Shown here: one piece after another, positions 31,405 to 51,106 of the stretch
Layout: every line of letters starts with the position of its first letter
Position numbering within the stretch: the stretch's first letter is position 1
Origin: a phage
NCBI GenBank assembly: GCA_021469345.1
Contig: GCA_021469345.1_3049.1
Length of the DNA stretch: 64,000 bases
Strand: one strand, 5' to 3'
Program-made: the position numbers and the translations under genes
Notes under the pieces: generated by a model
Databases searched by the model: none
Seen by the model: the letters and a program-made list of their open reading frames with translations, nothing else
Told to the model about the DNA's origin: nothing

Positions 31405-31477
31405 TGGGAATTAGCCAAGTTGGTAAGGCATAGCACTTTGACTGCTAGATGCAAAGGTTCGAGTCCTTTATTCCCAG
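31405..31477 (+). tRNA. tRNA-Gln (anticodon UUG)
   Basis: Cloverleaf read by eye: acceptor TGGGAAT/ATTCCCA, T-arm GGTTCGAGTCC, anticodon loop CTTTGAC. Confidence 0.85.
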
Positions 31478-31478
31478 C

Positions 31479-31565
31479 GCGAGAATGGTCAAATTGGTAA
31501 AGGCACAGCACTTAAAATGCTGCGGAATAATTTCCTTGTGGGTTCGAGTCCCACTTCTCGCACCA
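31479..31565 (+). tRNA. tRNA-Leu (anticodon UAA), long variable arm, CCA encoded
   Basis: Acceptor GCGAGAA/TTCTCGC, anticodon loop CTTAAAA, T-arm GGTTCGAGTCC, 3' ACCA. Confidence 0.85.
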
Positions 31566-31570
31566 AATTT

Positions 31571-31644
<74 letters not shown>

Positions 31645-31654
31645 ATTTAATTTA

Positions 31655-31728
31655 CTCCGTGTAGCTCAGTTTGGTAGAGCGTCTGCTTTGGGAGCAGAAT
31701 GTCGTAGGTTCAAATCCTGCCACGGAGA
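31655..31728 (+). tRNA. tRNA-Pro (anticodon UGG)
   Basis: Acceptor CTCCGTG/CACGGAG, anticodon loop TTTGGGA, T-arm GGTTCAAATCC. Confidence 0.85.
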
Positions 31729-31730
31729 CT

Positions 31731-31817
31731 GGAGGCGTGGCAGAGTGGTTTAATGCACCGGTCTTGAAAACCGGCAGTCGCTCCGGCGACTCATAGGTTC
31801 AAATCCTATCGCCTCCG
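31731..31817 (+). tRNA. tRNA-Ser (anticodon UGA), long variable arm
   Basis: Acceptor GGAGGCG/CGCCTCC, anticodon loop CTTGAAA, T-arm GGTTCAAATCC. Confidence 0.85.
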
Positions 31818-31819
31818 TT

Positions 31820-31895
31820 GCTGATTTAGCTCAGTAGGTAGAGCACCTCACTTGTAATGAGGATGTCGGCGGTTCGATCCCGTCAATCAGCACCA
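31820..31895 (+). tRNA. tRNA-Thr (anticodon UGU), CCA encoded
   Basis: Acceptor GCTGATT/AATCAGC, anticodon loop CTTGTAA, T-arm GGTTCGATCC. Confidence 0.85.
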
Positions 31896-31896
31896 A

Positions 31897-31968
31897 GGCC
31901 CTGTAGCTGGAAGGTTCAAGCAAGCGACTCATAATCGCCAGATGGTGGTTCAATTCCACCCAGGGCCA
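31897..31968 (+). tRNA. tRNA-Ile (anticodon CAU, presumably lysidine-modified as in T4)
   Basis: Acceptor GGCCCTG/CAGGGCC, anticodon loop CTCATAA, T-arm GGTTCAATTCC. Confidence 0.8.
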
Positions 31969-32009
31969 TATTTTGGGAACATAAATACTCTTAGAAATAG
32001 GAGATATTT

Positions 32010-32675
32010 ATGTTCCATTACACTTATAAAATAACAAATAAAATTAATAATAAAATTTATATTGGTGTGCATTCTACCGAAAATTTAGATGATGGATATA
32101 TGGGTTCTGGTAAATTATTAAAAAGAGCTCAAGATAAGTATGGTATAGAAAATTTTTCTAAAGAAATATTAGAGTATTTTGATGATAAAGAATCTATGCT
32201 TGAAGCCGAGAAAAATATTGTCACAGAAGAGTTTTTAAATAGACCAGATGTGTATAATTTAAAACTTGGCGGTGAAGGTGGATGGGACCATATAAATATT
32301 CCTGGGATGCTAAACCAGAAGAAAGACGCTAGTTTAAAAGGAGCTAAATCGTTTAAGTCACGTTTTAAAAATGATATTTTACTTCAAGAAAAATATCGTA
32401 AACATGGTTCAAATGTATTTAAACGCTTGTGGTCAACTCCTGAATACAGGGAAAAATTTTTAAATAATAGCAGATTTTTAAATAAGCATCATACTCCTGA
32501 AACTATTAATAAAATGAAAGAATCTCACGCCAGAAATAAACATCAACAGGGCGAAAAGAATTCCCAATTTGGTATGATGTGGATTCATTCATTAGATGAA
32601 AAAGTTTCTAAACGTATTAAGAAAACTGACCCAATTCCAGAAGGATGGCTTAAAGGTCGAAAAATGAAATTTTAA
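32010..32675 (+). CDS. segB: GIY-YIG homing endonuclease SegB
   Basis: 221 aa; N-terminal YTYKITN...KIYIGVHST...YMGSG GIY-YIG module; inserted inside the tRNA cluster as in T4. Confidence 0.85.
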   Translation: MFHYTYKITNKINNKIYIGVHSTENLDDGYMGSGKLLKRAQDKYGIENFSKEILEYFDDKESMLEAEKNIVTEEFLNRPDVYNLKLGGEGGWDHINIPGMLNQKKDASLKGAKSFKSRFKNDILLQEKYRKHGSNVFKRLWSTPEYREKFLNNSRFLNKHHTPETINKMKESHARNKHQQGEKNSQFGMMWIHSLDEKVSKRIKKTDPIPEGWLKGRKMKF

Positions 32676-32678
32676 TTA

Positions 32679-32754
32679 CGGGGCATAGCTCAGAAGGAAG
32701 AGCAAGGACCTTCTAAGTCCTGGGTCGTAGGTTCGATCCCTACTGCCTCGACCA
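32679..32754 (+). tRNA. tRNA-Arg (anticodon UCU), CCA encoded
   Basis: Acceptor CGGGGCA/TGCCTCG (one G-U pair), anticodon loop CTTCTAA, T-arm GGTTCGATCCC; begins 4 nt after the segB stop. Confidence 0.85.
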
Positions 32755-46909: not shown

Positions 46910-47371
46910 ATGATTATTAATGAAAACTCTTGGCACTATAAATTATTCAAATTGTTTAACGATGAATGGCAACGACCTAAGACGCTGTGCGCATACTTTT
47001 GGTCTATTGTTATCCCTACATTTTTCGTTTCTTTTTTCGGATGTACTATACTCGTAGGTCTAACTATCATCTGCGCAGAAATCATGCAGAAATGGCTTAT
47101 TTTTGGTAGTTTATGGACTCTTATTCCATCAGCATTTATACTTGCTATTTTGCTTGTTTTACTTATTATTGGTTCATTTGTTATTCCTGCACAACTGCAT
47201 GAAAAATATAAAGATTATAAATGGAAAAAGGATTATGCTTTACATGTAGAAAATATTGATAGGGCGTATAAAGGTTTACCTCCTATTCAACCCAAGAAAT
47301 CTATTATCGTCGAATTTTTAAAAGCTCGTAAAGCTAAAGTATGTCCTGTTATTGAATATAAGGCTGAATGA
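46910..47371 (+). CDS. Integral membrane protein
   Basis: 153 aa with two or three hydrophobic helices. Confidence 0.5.
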   Translation: MIINENSWHYKLFKLFNDEWQRPKTLCAYFWSIVIPTFFVSFFGCTILVGLTIICAEIMQKWLIFGSLWTLIPSAFILAILLVLLIIGSFVIPAQLHEKYKDYKWKKDYALHVENIDRAYKGLPPIQPKKSIIVEFLKARKAKVCPVIEYKAE

Positions 47372-48381
47372 TGAAAACAGTAATGAAAAGCTATTTTGGT
47401 AGTTATCTTTATGGAACTTCTACCCCAGAATCTGATGTAGATTTTAAAGAAATCTTTGTTCCTCCTGCTCGTGATATTCTTATTGGAAATGTTAAAGAGC
47501 ACATGAGTAAAAACACTAACAACACATCATCTAAAAACACTAAAGATGATATTGACCATGAACTATACAGTCTTAAATATTTCTTTAAATTAGCAGCAGA
47601 TGGTGAAACTATAGCATTGGATATGCTTCACACTCCACCTGAACTAGTGGTTAAATCTGATTTGCCTGATGTGTGGAAGTTTATTCAAGACAACCGTTCT
47701 CGTTTTTATACGACTAGCATGAAATCATATTTAGGATATGTCCGCAAGCAGGCTTCTAAATACGGTGTCAAGGGTTCTCGTTTGGCTGCATTACGCGATG
47801 TATTGAAAGTAGTTAATCAAATCCCTGAGCAATGGGTTGATTACCAAGAAGACGGTTCCATTAAGCAGCGTCGTACTAAAGTTGAAGATATTAAGCATCG
47901 TCTTCCAGAAAACGAATTCTGTGAATGGGTGTTCCATAATCATGAGAAAACAGGCCCGCAAACGTTCTACACTGTGTTGGGTCGTAAATATCAGACAACG
48001 CTTTCTCTTATTGAGCTTAAGCAGTCACTGAACAAATTAGATGCTGAATATGGTGAACGTGCTCGTAAGGCCGAAGCCAATGAAGGCATTGACTGGAAAG
48101 CTCTGAGTCATGCTTGTCGTGGTGGACTTCAACTATTGGAAATTTACAAAACTGGTGACTTGGTTTATCCACTTCAAGACGCTCCATTTATTCTCGACGT
48201 GAAGTTGGGTAAACATCCATTTAAAACGGTTCAAGAGTTTTTGGAAGATGTGGTTGATCAAGTAGAAGCAGCATCTACTGAAGCTTCTAAGAACGGTATG
48301 CAGCAAAAAGTAGACATGAGTTTCTGGGATGACTTCCTTGAGAAGGTGTATCTCGAAAACCATCGAAGTTATTATAAATGA
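47368..48381 (+). CDS. Pol-beta-superfamily nucleotidyltransferase-like protein
   Basis: 337 aa; N-terminal FGSYLYGTSTPESDVDF resembles the G-S-x(9-13)-D-x-D motif of the minimal nucleotidyltransferase fold; followed by a strong terminator. Confidence 0.6.
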   Translation: MMKTVMKSYFGSYLYGTSTPESDVDFKEIFVPPARDILIGNVKEHMSKNTNNTSSKNTKDDIDHELYSLKYFFKLAADGETIALDMLHTPPELVVKSDLPDVWKFIQDNRSRFYTTSMKSYLGYVRKQASKYGVKGSRLAALRDVLKVVNQIPEQWVDYQEDGSIKQRRTKVEDIKHRLPENEFCEWVFHNHEKTGPQTFYTVLGRKYQTTLSLIELKQSLNKLDAEYGERARKAEANEGIDWKALSHACRGGLQLLEIYKTGDLVYPLQDAPFILDVKLGKHPFKTVQEFLEDVVDQVEAASTEASKNGMQQKVDMSFWDDFLEKVYLENHRSYYK

Positions 48382-48383
48382 TA

Positions 48384-48408
48384 GGGAGCCTTCGGGCTCC
48401 TTTTTTTA
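48384..48408 (+). terminator. Rho-independent terminator after the nucleotidyltransferase-like gene
   Basis: GGGAGCC-TTCG-GGCTCC followed by TTTTTTT. Confidence 0.7.
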
Positions 48409-48414
48409 TTTCAA

Positions 48415-48475
48415 AAATTTTTCACAAAACTGTTTACAAGCATAAAGCTTTATGGTACTATACAACTATCAAAAC
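48415..48475 (+). promoter_or_regulatory. Early promoter cassette
   Basis: TTTTTCACAAAACTGTTTACA plus TGGTACTATACAACTATCAA. Confidence 0.6.
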
Positions 48476-48497
48476 AAACACTTAAACGGAAAACAAA

Positions 48498-48647
48498 ATG
48501 AAAATTACACCAATTGAAGTAAAAAAGTTGATTGATACAGAAGAAATTTCAGAGTGTTTTGAAAGTTTCTTAGAAGACGCAACTGAAGATAACGCGGTTT
48601 ATCTTGCCCAGAAAATTATCGAAACTTATTTGGAGAAGAATCAATGA
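48498..48647 (+). CDS. Small hypothetical acidic protein
   Basis: 49 aa ORF immediately downstream of an early promoter; ATGA-coupled to the next gene. Confidence 0.35.
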   Translation: MKITPIEVKKLIDTEEISECFESFLEDATEDNAVYLAQKIIETYLEKNQ

Positions 48648-48907
48648 CAGTTTACGTAGATGTTTTAATGAATCATGGATGGAAACTTCGCGGTCATCCA
48701 ACTAAAAATTGTCATATGTTCACTGATGGAGATATTGAAGAGCTTCACGAAATGGCAGAAGCAATAGGAATGAAACGTTCTTGGTTTCAAGATAAACGCA
48801 TTAAACATTATGACTTACACGCTCGGCGACGCCAAAAAGCTGTAGAACTTGGAGCTGTAGAAGTATCTCGTCGCGAAGCAGTAAAAATTTGGCAAACATT
48901 AAAATAA
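48644..48907 (+). CDS. Hypothetical protein
   Basis: 87 aa ORF, His-rich. Confidence 0.45.
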   Translation: MTVYVDVLMNHGWKLRGHPTKNCHMFTDGDIEELHEMAEAIGMKRSWFQDKRIKHYDLHARRRQKAVELGAVEVSRREAVKIWQTLK

Positions 48908-48952
48908 ATTGTTTACAGCAGGGTAGTAGTGTGATACTATTACCCTATCAAA
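48900..48952 (+). promoter_or_regulatory. Early promoter cassette (PeSL-like)
   Basis: GTTTAC at 48911, -10 in GTGATACTATTACCCTATCAA, inverted repeat GGGTA/TACCC. Confidence 0.6.
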
Positions 48953-48976
48953 ACAAATGTGAAATTGGAGAATAAA

Positions 48977-49945
48977 ATGAAAACTGTAACTATCAATAAG
49001 GGTATCTACTTCGGTAAAGAAATCTCTGGAACTTTTGAGCTCTTAGGTGAATGGTTCCCAGATAATGCTCCGGTAGATGCACAAGGAGATGGTAAAGTTT
49101 TTGTTGAAATTGACGGTAAACGTCGCGGTGTTTGGGTTTACAAATCAGACATTTCATATGATGGTGTAAAAGTTGAAGAAGTTAAAGAATCGTATGAAGA
49201 TATGAAAACCCGCATTAATAAAAGATTTAATGTTATGGGAATGATGACGAATGGTATTATTAATGGAAATATTCGTTCATTAATTATCTCTGGCGCAGCA
49301 GGTATTGGTAAAACGTATTCTTTAGATAAAGCTTTAAATAAAGCAAATGATAATGGATACATTGAATATAAAAGCATTAATGGTAAAATCTCTGGTATCG
49401 GTCTTTATGAACAGCTCTGGAATAATCGTGAAGAGAATTCTGTCCTTTTGATTGATGATGTGGATGTTTTCTCTGATATGGACATTCTTAATCTTCTAAA
49501 AGCCGCTCTGGACACTGGAGAGACCCGTAAAGTCTGCTGGAGCACTGCATCTTCTTACTTAGAAGAAAAAGGCATTGACCGTGAGTTTGAATTTAAAGGA
49601 ACGATTGTTTTTATCACAAACGTTGACATTGACCGCGAATTAGACCGCGGTACTAAACTTGCTCCACATTTACAAGCATTAGTGTCCCGCTCAGTTTATT
49701 TGGATTTGGGTGTTCACACCAATGAAGAAATTATGGTCAGGGTTGAAGATGTTATTCTTTCAACTGACATGATGCAAAAGCGCGGTCTTTCTGATGAAGA
49801 AACTTATAAAGCATTATCATGGATGAAAGTTAATGTTAATCGTTTACGCAATGTTTCACTGCGTACTGCTCTTTATCTTGCTGACTTTATTATGACCGAC
49901 AAAAATCATTGGGAAGAAATTGCTGAAACGGTATTATTAAAATGA
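48977..49945 (+). CDS. AAA+ family ATPase
   Basis: Walker A GAAGIGKT and Walker B LLIDDVD; about 322 aa from the ATG after SD GGAG. Confidence 0.65.
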   Translation: MKTVTINKGIYFGKEISGTFELLGEWFPDNAPVDAQGDGKVFVEIDGKRRGVWVYKSDISYDGVKVEEVKESYEDMKTRINKRFNVMGMMTNGIINGNIRSLIISGAAGIGKTYSLDKALNKANDNGYIEYKSINGKISGIGLYEQLWNNREENSVLLIDDVDVFSDMDILNLLKAALDTGETRKVCWSTASSYLEEKGIDREFEFKGTIVFITNVDIDRELDRGTKLAPHLQALVSRSVYLDLGVHTNEEIMVRVEDVILSTDMMQKRGLSDEETYKALSWMKVNVNRLRNVSLRTALYLADFIMTDKNHWEEIAETVLLK

Positions 49946-50661
49946 AAAAATATTTTACTATCTATAAAACTGAAATATTAAATTTAAAGACAGGTATTAA
50001 GAAATACTATTATGGTCGACATATAACTAATAACATCAATGATTCGTATGTTGGTAGTGGAAATTATATAGAACGTGTAAAAGTGTCAAATGACCACATA
50101 TTATCAAAAACGGTTTTAGAAGTTTTTGATAATTATGATAAAATGGTACAAGCTGAAATATTATATATCATGGCAGGTAAATTGAAATATGGAAAAAACT
50201 GTGTTAACCTGTCATACGGGGGTGAAGGAGGAAAGGTTGCAGATGAAACTAGGATAAAATGCAAAAAGCATTCTATAAATTTATGGAAAAATCCTAATCA
50301 TATACAGCATATGAAGAAAAAGATGAAAGAGGTCACATCCACGCCGGAAGCTAAATTAAACACTTCAATAAAAACTTCGCAACGATATAAGGACCCAGTT
50401 TTTGTTAGAAAAGTTAGTAATATTATTAAAAAGAAACTAAGCAATCCTACAGTAAAAGAAAAGCATATTAATGGAATTAAAGCTGCAAAGCGTTCTCATT
50501 TAACTATATGGCAGTATGAAGATGAATTATTCGAGCTTTGGAAAGAAACTAAATATGGATGGAGAAAATTTACAAAGGAAGCTATAAAACACGGATATCC
50601 AAATGAACCGTATCGTAGTATGGTATCAACTTTTCAGAAAAGACATTTAGAAGAATCCTAA
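49942..50661 (+). CDS. GIY-YIG-type homing endonuclease (seg-like)
   Basis: 239 aa; YFTIYKTE...KKYYYGRH...YVGSG parallels the SegB N-terminus in this window; basic C-terminal region. Confidence 0.6.
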   Translation: MKKYFTIYKTEILNLKTGIKKYYYGRHITNNINDSYVGSGNYIERVKVSNDHILSKTVLEVFDNYDKMVQAEILYIMAGKLKYGKNCVNLSYGGEGGKVADETRIKCKKHSINLWKNPNHIQHMKKKMKEVTSTPEAKLNTSIKTSQRYKDPVFVRKVSNIIKKKLSNPTVKEKHINGIKAAKRSHLTIWQYEDELFELWKETKYGWRKFTKEAIKHGYPNEPYRSMVSTFQKRHLEES

Positions 50662-50743
50662 GACAAAAAGGCAGTTCAGAAATAGATTATATGGACTGCC
50701 ATTAAAAAGATGACTAGAATTAAACTGGTAAACGGAGGTAGTG

Positions 50744-51046
50744 ATGTTATACTCAAAGGCTCGTGAAATTTACGAAACTAAAATTAAAGAAGCAGTATTT
50801 CAGTTCGCAACAACAATGCGATGGACAAATGACTGTGAGTATTCAAAAAATCATAAGAAGCCCATGGTGACAAGAAAGGCTCATATGTTAGTGTTAATAG
50901 ACCGCGAGCAGATTAAAGCCCGAGAAGCCCTCCAGAATCATAAAAAGGCTGCCTTTGAATGGTTTATGGATAACACTGCTCCTGAGACTAAGAAAGCAGT
51001 AAGCGCATGGTTCAGTGGAAAAAATTGCGAAAGAAGTTTCTTTTAG
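50744..51046 (+). CDS. Hypothetical protein
   Basis: About 100 aa. Confidence 0.45.
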   Translation: MLYSKAREIYETKIKEAVFQFATTMRWTNDCEYSKNHKKPMVTRKAHMLVLIDREQIKAREALQNHKKAAFEWFMDNTAPETKKAVSAWFSGKNCERSFF

Positions 51047-51090
51047 TGGTTTACAAGACTGTTCCTCTGTGGTACTATACAACTATCAAC
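51040..51090 (+). promoter_or_regulatory. Early promoter cassette
   Basis: GTTTAC at 51049, -10 in TGGTACTATACAACTATCAAC. Confidence 0.6.
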
Positions 51091-51106
51091 TACGGAGGAA
51101 CACAAA

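What the first reader, a model, noticed from the sequence alone, without database searches (positions are those of the whole stretch)
47368..50661. Nucleotidyltransferase-like protein, small protein and AAA+ ATPase module next to a homing endonuclease
The 337-aa protein has an N-terminal G-S-x(n)-D-x-D signature (FGSYLYGTSTPESDVDF) of the Pol-beta/minimal nucleotidyltransferase fold, which is shared by nucleotide-signalling synthases, nucleotide-modifying enzymes and toxin/antitoxin nucleotidyltransferases. It is followed, after a terminator and a fresh early promoter, by an 87-aa ORF and an AAA+ ATPase (GAAGIGKT, LLIDDVD), then directly by a free-standing GIY-YIG endonuclease gene. A nucleotidyltransferase plus ATPase pair in a phage early region could act in nucleotide or tRNA modification, or in interference with host nucleotide-based immune signalling. 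The adjacent mobile endonuclease suggests the block is exchangeable. I cannot establish from memory whether these are conserved T4 nrdC.x genes.
Basis: partly seen in the sequence, partly recalled or inferred. Interest (0 to 1): 0.6.

Follow-up and report, generated by a model that had tools for sequence, protein, structure and literature searches.

The report
T4 nrdC.11/nrdC.10 genes, already known
This stretch holds the T2/T4 phage genes nrdC.11 (an RNA-repair-type nucleotidyltransferase of the RlaP family) and nrdC.10 (an AAA+ ATPase of unknown role), with a small swappable gene cassette between them and a homing endonuclease after them; the genes are real but already catalogued and do not form a dedicated two-part system.

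Summary
The window is a T2/T4-like Tequatrovirus.

- **337-aa protein:** this is NrdC.11, 98% identical to T4 NrdC.11. It matches Pfam RlaP (PF10127) above the curated cut-off. A 2025 preprint names T4 NrdC.11 as an RlaP and shows that bacterial RlaPs add 1-2 nucleotides to RNA 3'-OH ends.
- **ATPase:** this is NrdC.10, also 98% identical to T4. It has a confident AAA+ fold with no specific subfamily or known function.
- **87-aa ORF:** this is DUF4031. With a 49-aa ORF it forms a cassette bounded by two early-promoter copies. T4 and RB32 lack it, and other phages carry it elsewhere.
- **Endonuclease:** it is Seg-like (GIY-YIG lineage) and sporadically present.

The "NTase plus ATPase module" reading is not supported. 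A terminator and promoter separate the two genes, either gene occurs without the other, and distant homologues are never neighbours. Distant NrdC.11 homologues instead sit beside RNA ligases, an HD-kinase enzyme and CCA-adding enzymes. This supports RNA-end repair against anticodon nucleases, not interference with immune signalling. The finding is already known and of low-to-moderate interest.

The parts
47368..48381 (+). nrdC.11: RlaP-family (PF10127) Pol-beta-fold nucleotidyltransferase, 337 aa. It has hG[GS] (G11-S12), D23-x-D25, an invariant KNTKDDxD motif (K56-D63) and a basic helical C-terminal half.
   Evidence: ORF. Pfam RlaP E 9.8e-11, 42.2 bits against cut-off 23, and PHROG 388 'nucleotidyltransferase' E 4e-135. 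98% identical to T4 NrdC.11. Conserved residues from alignments of 30 and 146 homologues.
48383..48411 (+). Intrinsic terminator after nrdC.11: AGGGAGCC-TTCG-GGCTCCTT followed by a T-run. This is the stem-loop half of a PeSL-type terminator/early-promoter unit.
   Evidence: Sequence conserved in T4 and RB32 (one substitution in the stem).
48432..48461 (+). T4 early-type promoter (GTTTACA...TGGTACTAT). It drives orf49 and DUF4031 here; in T4 and RB32 the same promoter drives nrdC.10 directly.
48498..48647 (+). orf49: 49-aa protein of unknown function, the first gene of the variable cassette.
   Evidence: PHROG 6888 E 5.5e-31. It travels with DUF4031 in most other phages examined (not detected in L064).
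48644..48907 (+). DUF4031 protein, 87 aa, the second gene of the variable cassette. Invariant residues are M1, D6, H24, L34, A38, Q49, H55-Y56-D57 and G70.
   Evidence: Pfam PF13223 E 1.1e-21. Alignment of 41 homologues. Absent from T4 and RB32. No PDB relative.
48911..48940 (+). Second, diverged copy of the early promoter. It drives nrdC.10 and, because of the 4-nt overlap, the endonuclease gene. It marks the right boundary of the cassette.
48977..49945 (+). nrdC.10: AAA+ ATPase, 322 aa from the ATG at 48977. It has an N-terminal beta domain (about residues 9-67 in numbering from the GTG at 48959), Walker A GAAGIGKT, Walker B LLIDDVD, sensor-1 N221 and an SRS arginine motif (R244).
49942..50661 (+). 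Free-standing Seg-like (GIY-YIG lineage) homing endonuclease, 239 aa. Its start overlaps the nrdC.10 stop by 4 nt. It is absent from T4.
   Evidence: PHROG 314 'homing endonuclease' E 1.9e-30. PADLOC HEase E 5e-8. tblastn homology to SegH and SegB (27-31% identity, E about 1e-6); present at 95% identity or more in only 67 phage records. Annotated 'similar to seg' in RB32. T4 goes straight from nrdC.10 to nrdC.9.
51049..51078 (+). Third copy of the early promoter, starting the next transcription unit (51107 onward), which lies downstream of the nrdC.9 homologue at 50741-51046. It marks the downstream limit of the region.

Best explanation
The region is the nrdC.11-nrdC.10 segment of a T2/T4-type phage early 'hyperplastic' region. 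It consists of independent early transcription units, not one machine.

- **NrdC.11** is an RlaP-family Pol-beta nucleotidyltransferase. Most likely it adds one or two nucleotides, without a template, to the 3'-OH of broken RNA, above all tRNA halves left by host anticodon nucleases that also remove a nucleotide (RloC type). The phage's own end-healing and sealing enzymes (Pnkp, Rnl1) could then restore a working tRNA. The family assignment is shown here. The activity is shown only for bacterial RlaPs in the literature. The role in T4-type phages is inferred.
- **NrdC.10** is a phage-specific AAA+ ATPase with an extra N-terminal beta domain. Its substrate is unknown, and no evidence ties it to NrdC.11.
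- **orf49 plus DUF4031** is a two-gene cassette inserted between two copies of the early promoter by PeSL-type recombination.
- **The Seg-like gene** is a selfish homing endonuclease that rides on the nrdC.10 transcript.
For: **Identity**
- The region shares 97-98% DNA identity with Tequatrovirus genomes.
- NrdC.11 and NrdC.10 are each 98% identical to the T4 proteins.

**Family of NrdC.11**
- Pfam RlaP is matched above the gathering score.
- G11 is invariant in both a 30-sequence alignment down to 26% identity and 146 representatives at 33-55%. S12, D23, D25, D61 and D63 are invariant in the first and at least 90% conserved in the second.
- A profile of the family finds 3683 representative clusters.

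**Literature**
- Preprint 10.64898/2025.12.29.696909 shows that Pseudomonas RlaPs add 1-2 NMP to RNA 3'-OH, prefer cleaved-tRNA mimics, and partly rescue aminoacylation of a tRNA lacking one nucleotide. It places T4 NrdC.11 in the family, in cluster 5.
- PMC7824862 predicts that phage RlaPs restore nucleotides lost to RloC-type nucleases before ligation.

**Synteny found here**
- Phage homologues at 31-41% identity sit in the order HD-phosphatase/kinase, Rnl1-type ligase, NTase (L072-L079).
- Others have an Rnl1-like gene (L093) or an Rnl2-like ligase (L097) directly downstream.
- Full-length homologues in L068, L097 and L098 have a CCA-adding-like enzyme within 6 kb.
- Shorter RlaP-like genes adjoin CCA-adding enzymes and a Ro60/TROVE gene (L106, L109, L112).
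- The neighbours of NrdC.10 homologues include no such genes.

**Independence of the units**
- A terminator and promoters lie between the genes.
- Either gene is present without the other, and they are never neighbours in distant phages.

**Cassette**
- T4 and RB32 have the same terminator-promoter directly before nrdC.10.
- The cassette lies at another site in L005, L057, L059 and L064.
- The PeSL mechanism is described in PMC2839356 and PMC4122927.
Against: - No activity of any phage NrdC.11 has been measured. It falls in a different sequence cluster from the enzymes assayed.
- The Pfam match covers only residues 7-135.
- The AF2 model failed (pLDDT 54) and no PDB relative was found by sequence or profile. 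The third catalytic carboxylate (D61 or D63, possibly D85) and the fold of the C-terminal half are therefore inferred.
- No RNA-ligase gene was detected within about 6 kb of nrdC.11 in the T4-type loci examined. The T-even gene itself lacks the synteny that named the family.
- nrdC.11-mobD.3 can be deleted from T4 without loss of viability in the laboratory (PMC9825161), so any role is conditional.
- RlaP addition is not nucleotide-specific in vitro, so only a fraction of repaired tRNA would be correct.
Confidence: 0.6

Rival explanations
1. NrdC.11 and NrdC.10 are a two-component system. The AAA+ ATPase would load, remodel or regulate the nucleotidyltransferase or its RNA substrate.
For: The two genes are neighbours, in the same order and orientation, in most close T-even relatives (Tequatrovirus, Mosigvirus and Acinetobacter T4-likes). 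Both are early genes of unknown physiological role.
Against: - A strong terminator and separate promoters lie between them, and a foreign cassette can sit there.
- Several relatives keep nrdC.11 with no nrdC.10 within 6 kb (L052, L054, L060-62, L065, L066).
- NrdC.10 homologues at or below 58% identity, and NrdC.11 homologues at or below 50%, never have the other within 6 kb. In one 183-kb contig the two lie about 40 kb apart (L013/L068).
- NrdC.10 neighbours in distant phages show no recurrent partner.
Confidence: 0.1
2. NrdC.11 acts mainly at tRNA 3' acceptor ends, or tails RNAs more generally. It would back up CCA repair after host 3'-end tRNases, or mark RNAs for decay or stability, rather than repair the anticodon loop.
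For: CCA-adding enzymes lie beside or near RlaP-like genes in six loci (L068, L097, L098, L106, L109, L112). Bacterial RlaPs label many E. coli RNAs and use all four NTPs.
Against: The full-length homologues closest to NrdC.11 are linked to ligases and end-healing enzymes, which points to break repair. RlaP prefers the 5' half of a cleaved-tRNA mimic over its 3' acceptor end.
Confidence: 0.15
3. NrdC.11 makes or destroys a nucleotide signal, or is a toxin-antitoxin-type minimal NTase (CD-NTase/OAS-like, or MNT/AbiEii-like), and so interferes with host immune signalling.
For: Only the generic G-S...D-x-D signature, which is shared by the whole Pol-beta superfamily.
Against: - The best family is RlaP.
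- NTP_transf_2 scores 16.7 bits, below its cut-off of 21.
- MntA scores 13.8 bits against a cut-off of 60.
- There are no PADLOC hits.
- No HEPN or effector partner is present.
- The synteny of homologues is with RNA repair genes.
Confidence: 0.03

Closest known systems
RlaP family nucleotidyltransferases (Pfam PF10127; Pseudomonas PfRlaP/PaRlaP; T4 NrdC.11)
   Same: - The Pfam match is above threshold.
- hG[GS] and DxD are conserved.
- The architecture is an N-terminal NTase domain plus a helical, basic C-terminal half.
- Phage homologues are linked to RNA ligases and end-healing enzymes.
- The protein is 98% identical to T4 NrdC.11, which the 2025 preprint lists as an RlaP.
   Different: - It belongs to a separate sequence cluster (cluster 5 in the preprint) from the enzymes assayed.
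- It carries an invariant KNTKDDxD motif after a variable insert.
- Only the N-terminal 135 residues align to the Pfam model.
- In T-even phages no RNA-ligase gene was found within about 6 kb of it.
- Its activity is untested.
AAA+ ATPases of the initiator/clamp-loader and MoxR/NtrC type (Hda/DnaA, ORC/Cdc6, RFC, NorQ/CbbQ)
   Same: - The fold is an alpha/beta P-loop core plus a helical lid.
- Walker A, Walker B (hhhhDD, which I recall, untested here, as also typical of DnaA/Hda), sensor-1 Asn and an SRS arginine motif (resembling, from memory, the SRC/box VII motif) are present.
   Different: - Identity is only 9-20%.
- No family model reaches its cut-off (Hda scores 15.5 bits against 194.8).
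- It has a unique N-terminal beta domain.
- The family is phage-restricted (PHROG 1250; BFVD hits in many tailed phages).
- There are no conserved partner genes.
Seg free-standing GIY-YIG homing endonucleases of T-even phages (SegB, SegH and others)
   Same: - It shares 27-31% identity with SegH and SegB over the N-terminal 150-185 residues.
- It has an N-terminal TIY...YYG-R motif.
- It is a promoter-less insertion overlapping the upstream gene.
- It has a patchy distribution among otherwise near-identical genomes.
   Different: - It is not one of the T4 segA-G genes.
- It is inserted between nrdC.10 and nrdC.9, a site that is empty in T4.
- It does not hit the Pfam GIY-YIG model.
- Its cleavage target is unknown.
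PeSL (promoter-early stem-loop) cassettes of T4-type hyperplastic regions
   Same: A terminator hairpin plus an early promoter flanks small genes of unknown function. The same cassette is found at different sites in related phages. The empty site in T4 and RB32 has one promoter copy.
   Different: Only the upstream boundary carries the hairpin here. Recombination itself is inferred from comparison and was not observed.

Membership tests
RlaP (PF10127) nucleotidyltransferase | Match to the family profile above the curated gathering score | tested here: met
   42.2 bits against 23, E 9.8e-11, residues 7-135. All 120 close homologues carry a precomputed PF10127 hit.
RlaP (PF10127) nucleotidyltransferase | Pol-beta NTase signature hG[GS] plus DxD on the next strand | tested here: met
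   G11 is invariant in both the 30-sequence and 146-sequence alignments. S12, D23 and D25 are invariant in the first and at least 90% conserved in the second.
RlaP (PF10127) nucleotidyltransferase | Third catalytic carboxylate and the NTase plus helical-domain fold seen in the PfRlaP crystal structure | tested here: inconclusive
   D61 and D63 (in KNTKDDxD) and D85 are conserved candidates. The AF2 model was unusable (pLDDT 54), and neither sequence nor profile found a PDB relative.
RlaP (PF10127) nucleotidyltransferase | Gene neighbourhood with RNA ligase or end-healing genes | tested here: inconclusive
   Not met for this gene or for T4-type loci. Met for homologues at 28-41% identity in other phages: L072-79, L093 and L097, with an Rnl1-like gene about 4 kb downstream in L091.
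RlaP (PF10127) nucleotidyltransferase | Adds 1-2 NMP to RNA 3'-OH (Mn2+-dependent) | not testable with these tools
   Shown only for Pseudomonas RlaPs in 10.64898/2025.12.29.696909.
AAA+ ATPase superfamily | Walker A, Walker B, sensor 1, arginine motif, and an alpha/beta core plus helical lid | tested here: met
Clamp loader / DnaA-Hda subfamilies | Family-specific profile match | tested here: not met
   Hda TIGR03420 scores 15.5 bits against a cut-off of 194.8. PHROG clamp-loader families reach only E 1.4e-4. The structural hits are spread over many AAA+ clades.
Seg-type GIY-YIG homing endonuclease | GIY-YIG catalytic domain | tested here: inconclusive
   There is no Pfam hit at E of 0.1 or better and no PDB sequence hit. 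The N-terminus reads TIY-x14-YYG-R, and it is homologous to SegH and SegB at E about 1e-6. PHROG 314 and PADLOC HEase are hit.
Seg-type GIY-YIG homing endonuclease | Free-standing and sporadic among near-identical genomes | tested here: met
   It is absent from T4. Only 67 records carry it at 95% identity or more, against 796 records with the region.
CD-NTase / OAS / MNT-AbiEii NTases | Family profile match or the typical partner gene (effector, HEPN) | tested here: not met
   There are no Pfam, NCBIfam or PADLOC matches above threshold, and no such neighbour.
PeSL cassette | Stem-loop terminator plus early promoter flanking variable genes, with an empty site in relatives | tested here: met
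   The definition comes from PMC4122927.

The most novel reading that the evidence does not exclude
The T-even arrangement might be a lineage-specific functional unit after all. In that case NrdC.10 would be an ATP-driven partner acting on the same damaged RNA or RNP as NrdC.11. Separately, the orf49-DUF4031 cassette wedged between them could encode a small, undescribed enzyme that extends the phage's RNA-damage or anti-defence repertoire; DUF4031 has invariant D, H, Q and H-Y-D residues. Neither idea is excluded, and neither has positive evidence beyond adjacency.
Probability: 0.08. Interest if true: 0.6.

Novelty: already known. Interest (0 to 1): 0.25.

Why it matters
The genes themselves are catalogued. 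nrdC.10 was flagged as an AAA ATPase and nrdC.11 as a nucleotidyltransferase in 2006. NrdC.11 was named an RlaP in 2025, and RlaPs in phages have been predicted to work with RNA ligases.

What remains open is a testable question: does the classic T4 tRNA-repair pathway (Pnkp plus Rnl1) have a third, nucleotide-restoring component? Such a component would let T-even phages survive wobble-excising anticodon nucleases such as RloC. The ligase/kinase/NTase cassettes found here in other phages add support for that idea.

NrdC.10 is a well-conserved, phage-wide AAA+ family with no known function. That is a modest gap in T4 biology.

Tried and rejected
- **NrdC.11 structure.** The alignment of close homologues (77% identity or more) gave pLDDT 54, with the NTase domain below 50, so no fold search was run on it. 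More distant homologues came from loci or the representative library and could not be handed to the predictor.
- **PDB searches.** Single-sequence and profile searches for NrdC.11 and DUF4031 found nothing meaningful. The PfRlaP structure appears not to be in the PDB copy, or is out of reach of these searches.
- **AlphaFold-database fold search.** The library was not available, so BFVD was used instead.
- **DUF4031 contexts.** Two unrelated phage or prophage settings showed no informative neighbours.
- **Defence-system models.** PADLOC gave no hits except the endonuclease.
- **NrdC.10 neighbours.** Neighbours in 19 distant loci showed no recurrent partner family.
- **Apparent D61N change in the T4 reference protein.** It could have meant an inactive enzyme. 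A resequenced T4 genome has Asp, so this is an error in the old record.
- **The 500-545-aa AAA+ proteins in L034-L045.** They were treated as a different, distantly related family and not analysed further.

Full report
**What is there**

The window is a T2/T4-type Tequatrovirus. Positions 47000-51100 match many T-even genomes at 97-98% DNA identity, and the + strand is the early-gene strand.

Annotated relatives identify the genes. The 337-aa ORF is nrdC.11 and the ATPase is nrdC.10. The next gene is a 'seg-like' endonuclease, followed by nrdC.9 (RB32, Yersinia phage ZN18 and T4). The window proteins are 98% identical to T4 NrdC.11 and NrdC.10.

The quoted motifs are present. A strong terminator hairpin with a T-run follows nrdC.11 at 48383-48402. 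Three copies of the T4 early promoter lie at 48432, 48911 and 51049. The motif GTTTAC-N18-20-TACTAT occurs eight times in the window, always on the + strand, against 0.03 expected by chance.

- A 49-aa ORF (PHROG 6888) precedes and overlaps the 87-aa ORF.
- A second promoter lies before nrdC.10.
- nrdC.10 starts at the ATG at 48977, not at the upstream GTG.

**The nucleotidyltransferase**

NrdC.11 matches Pfam RlaP (PF10127) at 42.2 bits against a cut-off of 23. It also matches PHROG 388 'nucleotidyltransferase'. Generic NTP_transf_2, the MntA antitoxin model and all PADLOC defence models are below threshold or silent.

I built an alignment of 30 homologues down to 26% identity, taken from viral contigs. 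I built a second of 146 representatives at 33-55% identity, taken from a profile search that found 3683 clusters.
- G11 is invariant in both alignments. S12, D23 and D25 are invariant in the first and at least 90% conserved in the second.
- K56, N57, T58, D60, D61 and D63 of a KNTKDDxD motif are invariant in the 30-sequence alignment. N57, D61 and D63 are at least 90% conserved across the 146.
- D85 and Q128, R138, R231, K244, H248 and R251 in the helical C-terminal half are invariant or at least 90% conserved in both alignments.

The third catalytic carboxylate is therefore probably D61 or D63, but this is an inference. The AF2 model from the shallow alignment I was allowed to use failed (pLDDT 54). 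No solved structure is reachable by sequence or profile.

**What the literature already says**

- Nolan et al. 2006 noted the AAA match of nrdC.10 and the COG3541 nucleotidyltransferase match of nrdC.11 (PMC1524935).
- Preprint 10.64898/2025.12.29.696909 characterises two Pseudomonas RlaPs. They add one or two NMPs to RNA 3'-OH ends, prefer Mn2+ and use any NTP. They favour the 5' half of a cleaved-tRNA mimic and partly rescue aminoacylation of a repaired tRNA that had lost a nucleotide. It names T4 NrdC.11 as an RlaP of unknown function in a separate cluster. It proposes RlaPs as antidotes to 'smart' ribotoxins such as RloC.
- A jumbo-phage survey states that RlaP distribution mirrors RNA ligases, and predicts that RlaPs restore nucleotides before ligation (PMC7824862).
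- A T4 genome-reduction study found nrdC.11-mobD.3 deletable (PMC9825161).

**New synteny evidence**

I fetched 67 viral loci encoding NrdC.11 relatives and 43 encoding NrdC.10 relatives, each with 6 kb of flank. I then looked at 35 non-redundant loci where the NrdC.11 homologue is at or below 50% identity.
- L072-L079 carry an HD-phosphohydrolase/P-loop-kinase gene, then an Rnl1-type RNA ligase, then the NTase, all on one strand.
- L093 has an Rnl1-like gene directly downstream.
- L097 has an Rnl2-like ligase directly downstream, with a CCA-adding-like enzyme further on.
- L068 and L098 have CCA-adding-like genes nearby.
- The shorter RlaP-like genes of L106, L109 and L112 adjoin CCA-adding enzymes, and one adjoins a Ro60/TROVE gene.

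None of these families appears among the neighbours of distant NrdC.10 homologues. This places the NrdC.11 lineage itself, not only bacterial RlaPs, in an RNA-repair context. The gene in the T-even phages is not next to a ligase.

**The ATPase**

NrdC.10 is highly conserved among T4-like phages of enterobacteria, Acinetobacter, Aeromonas and Vibrio, at 53-98% identity. More distant relatives occur in other tailed phages.

The AF2 model is confident (pLDDT 89.5). It shows a five-stranded N-terminal beta domain (about residues 9-67), an AAA+ alpha/beta core and a helical lid. Walker A, Walker B (LLIDDVD), a sensor-1 Asn and an SRS arginine motif are invariant.

**Is it a module?**

No.
- The genes are separated by a terminator and have their own promoters.
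- In T4 and RB32 the identical terminator-promoter sits directly before nrdC.10.
- Several relatives have nrdC.11 but no nrdC.10 nearby (L052, L054, L060-62, L065, L066).
- Homologues of either gene at or below 58% identity never have the other within 6 kb.
- In one 183-kb contig the two lie about 40 kb apart.

**The cassette and the endonuclease**

orf49 plus DUF4031 (Pfam E 1e-21) is missing from T4, RB32 and most relatives (88% coverage hits). It is bounded by two early-promoter copies. In other phages it lies about 2 kb downstream of nrdC.10, often again flanked by early promoters. This fits the PeSL shuffling described for T4-type hyperplastic regions (PMC2839356, PMC4122927).

DUF4031 proteins are small and stand-alone. 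They have invariant D6, H24, Q49, H55-Y56-D57 and G70, which suggests an enzyme. I found no structure, fusion or informative context for them.

The 239-aa protein overlaps the nrdC.10 stop codon by 4 nt.
- It hits homing-endonuclease families in PHROGs and PADLOC.
- It is homologous to SegH, SegB and other Seg-like GIY-YIG enzymes.
- It is absent from T4 and present at high identity in only 67 records.

**Verdict**

The best-supported mechanism is that NrdC.11 adds nucleotides to broken RNA ends as an accessory to phage tRNA repair. This is already proposed in the literature and is strengthened here by phage synteny. It remains untested for any phage enzyme.

The finding is already known. Interest is low to moderate.

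Noticed in passing
window 48432-48951 (compare L121:1300-1460 and L001:4360-4510): The orf49-DUF4031 cassette is inserted exactly between two copies of the early promoter. T4 and RB32 have a single copy of the same terminator-promoter directly before nrdC.10. In L005, L057, L059 and L064 the cassette sits about 2 kb downstream of nrdC.10. In ZN18 the upstream terminator-promoter is lost and orf49 is extended to a 72-aa ORF abutting nrdC.11.
   Followed up: yes
window 48644-48907: DUF4031 (87 aa) has invariant D6, H24, L34, A38, Q49, H55-Y56-D57 and G70 across 41 homologues down to 42% identity, which looks like a small enzyme. No solved relative, no domain fusions and no informative neighbours were found.
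   Followed up: partly
L121:1436-2446 (T4 NC_000866) versus L122:423-1433 (T4 MT984581): The old T4 reference NrdC.11 reads KNTKDN, GEP and LPDX. The window and a resequenced T4 read KNTKDD, GET and LPDV. The reference thus has probable sequencing errors, one of them at a near-invariant Asp that may be catalytic.
   Followed up: yes
L072:3387-6930, L075:2955-6933, L093:6001-8020, L097:5899-8099, L112:4323-8074: In uncultured phages, NrdC.11-like NTases are found in compact RNA-repair gene sets. These include HD-phosphohydrolase/kinase plus Rnl1-type ligase plus NTase; NTase plus Rnl2-like ligase; and Ro60/TROVE plus RlaP-like NTase plus CCA-adding enzyme.
   Followed up: partly
window 46910-47371: A 153-aa predicted membrane protein (PHROG 944) occupies the place of the HNH endonuclease gene mobD of T4 and overlaps the nrdC.11 start. 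RB32 annotates the same gene as 'replaces mobD'.
   Followed up: partly
window 31405-32754: The T4-type cluster of eight tRNA genes (Gln, Leu, Gly, Pro, Ser, Thr, a CAU-anticodon tRNA, Arg) lies about 15 kb upstream. There is a gap of about 710 bp before tRNA-Arg, where T4 carries segB.
   Followed up: no
window 48977-49180 (NrdC.10 N-terminus); L020-L029: The N-terminal beta domain of NrdC.10 is confidently predicted and conserved in T4-like phages. It is missing from many of the shorter (256-327 aa) homologues in marine and metagenomic phage contigs. Its fold and role were not examined separately.
   Followed up: no
L034-L045: AAA+ proteins of 495-631 aa, distantly related to NrdC.10 (26-34% identity), occur in large phage contigs. 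In several of them (L034, L036, L039, L040, L042) they lie next to a conserved pair of genes of about 113 aa and about 561-573 aa, sizes reminiscent of GroES and GroEL. These genes were not identified.
   Followed up: no
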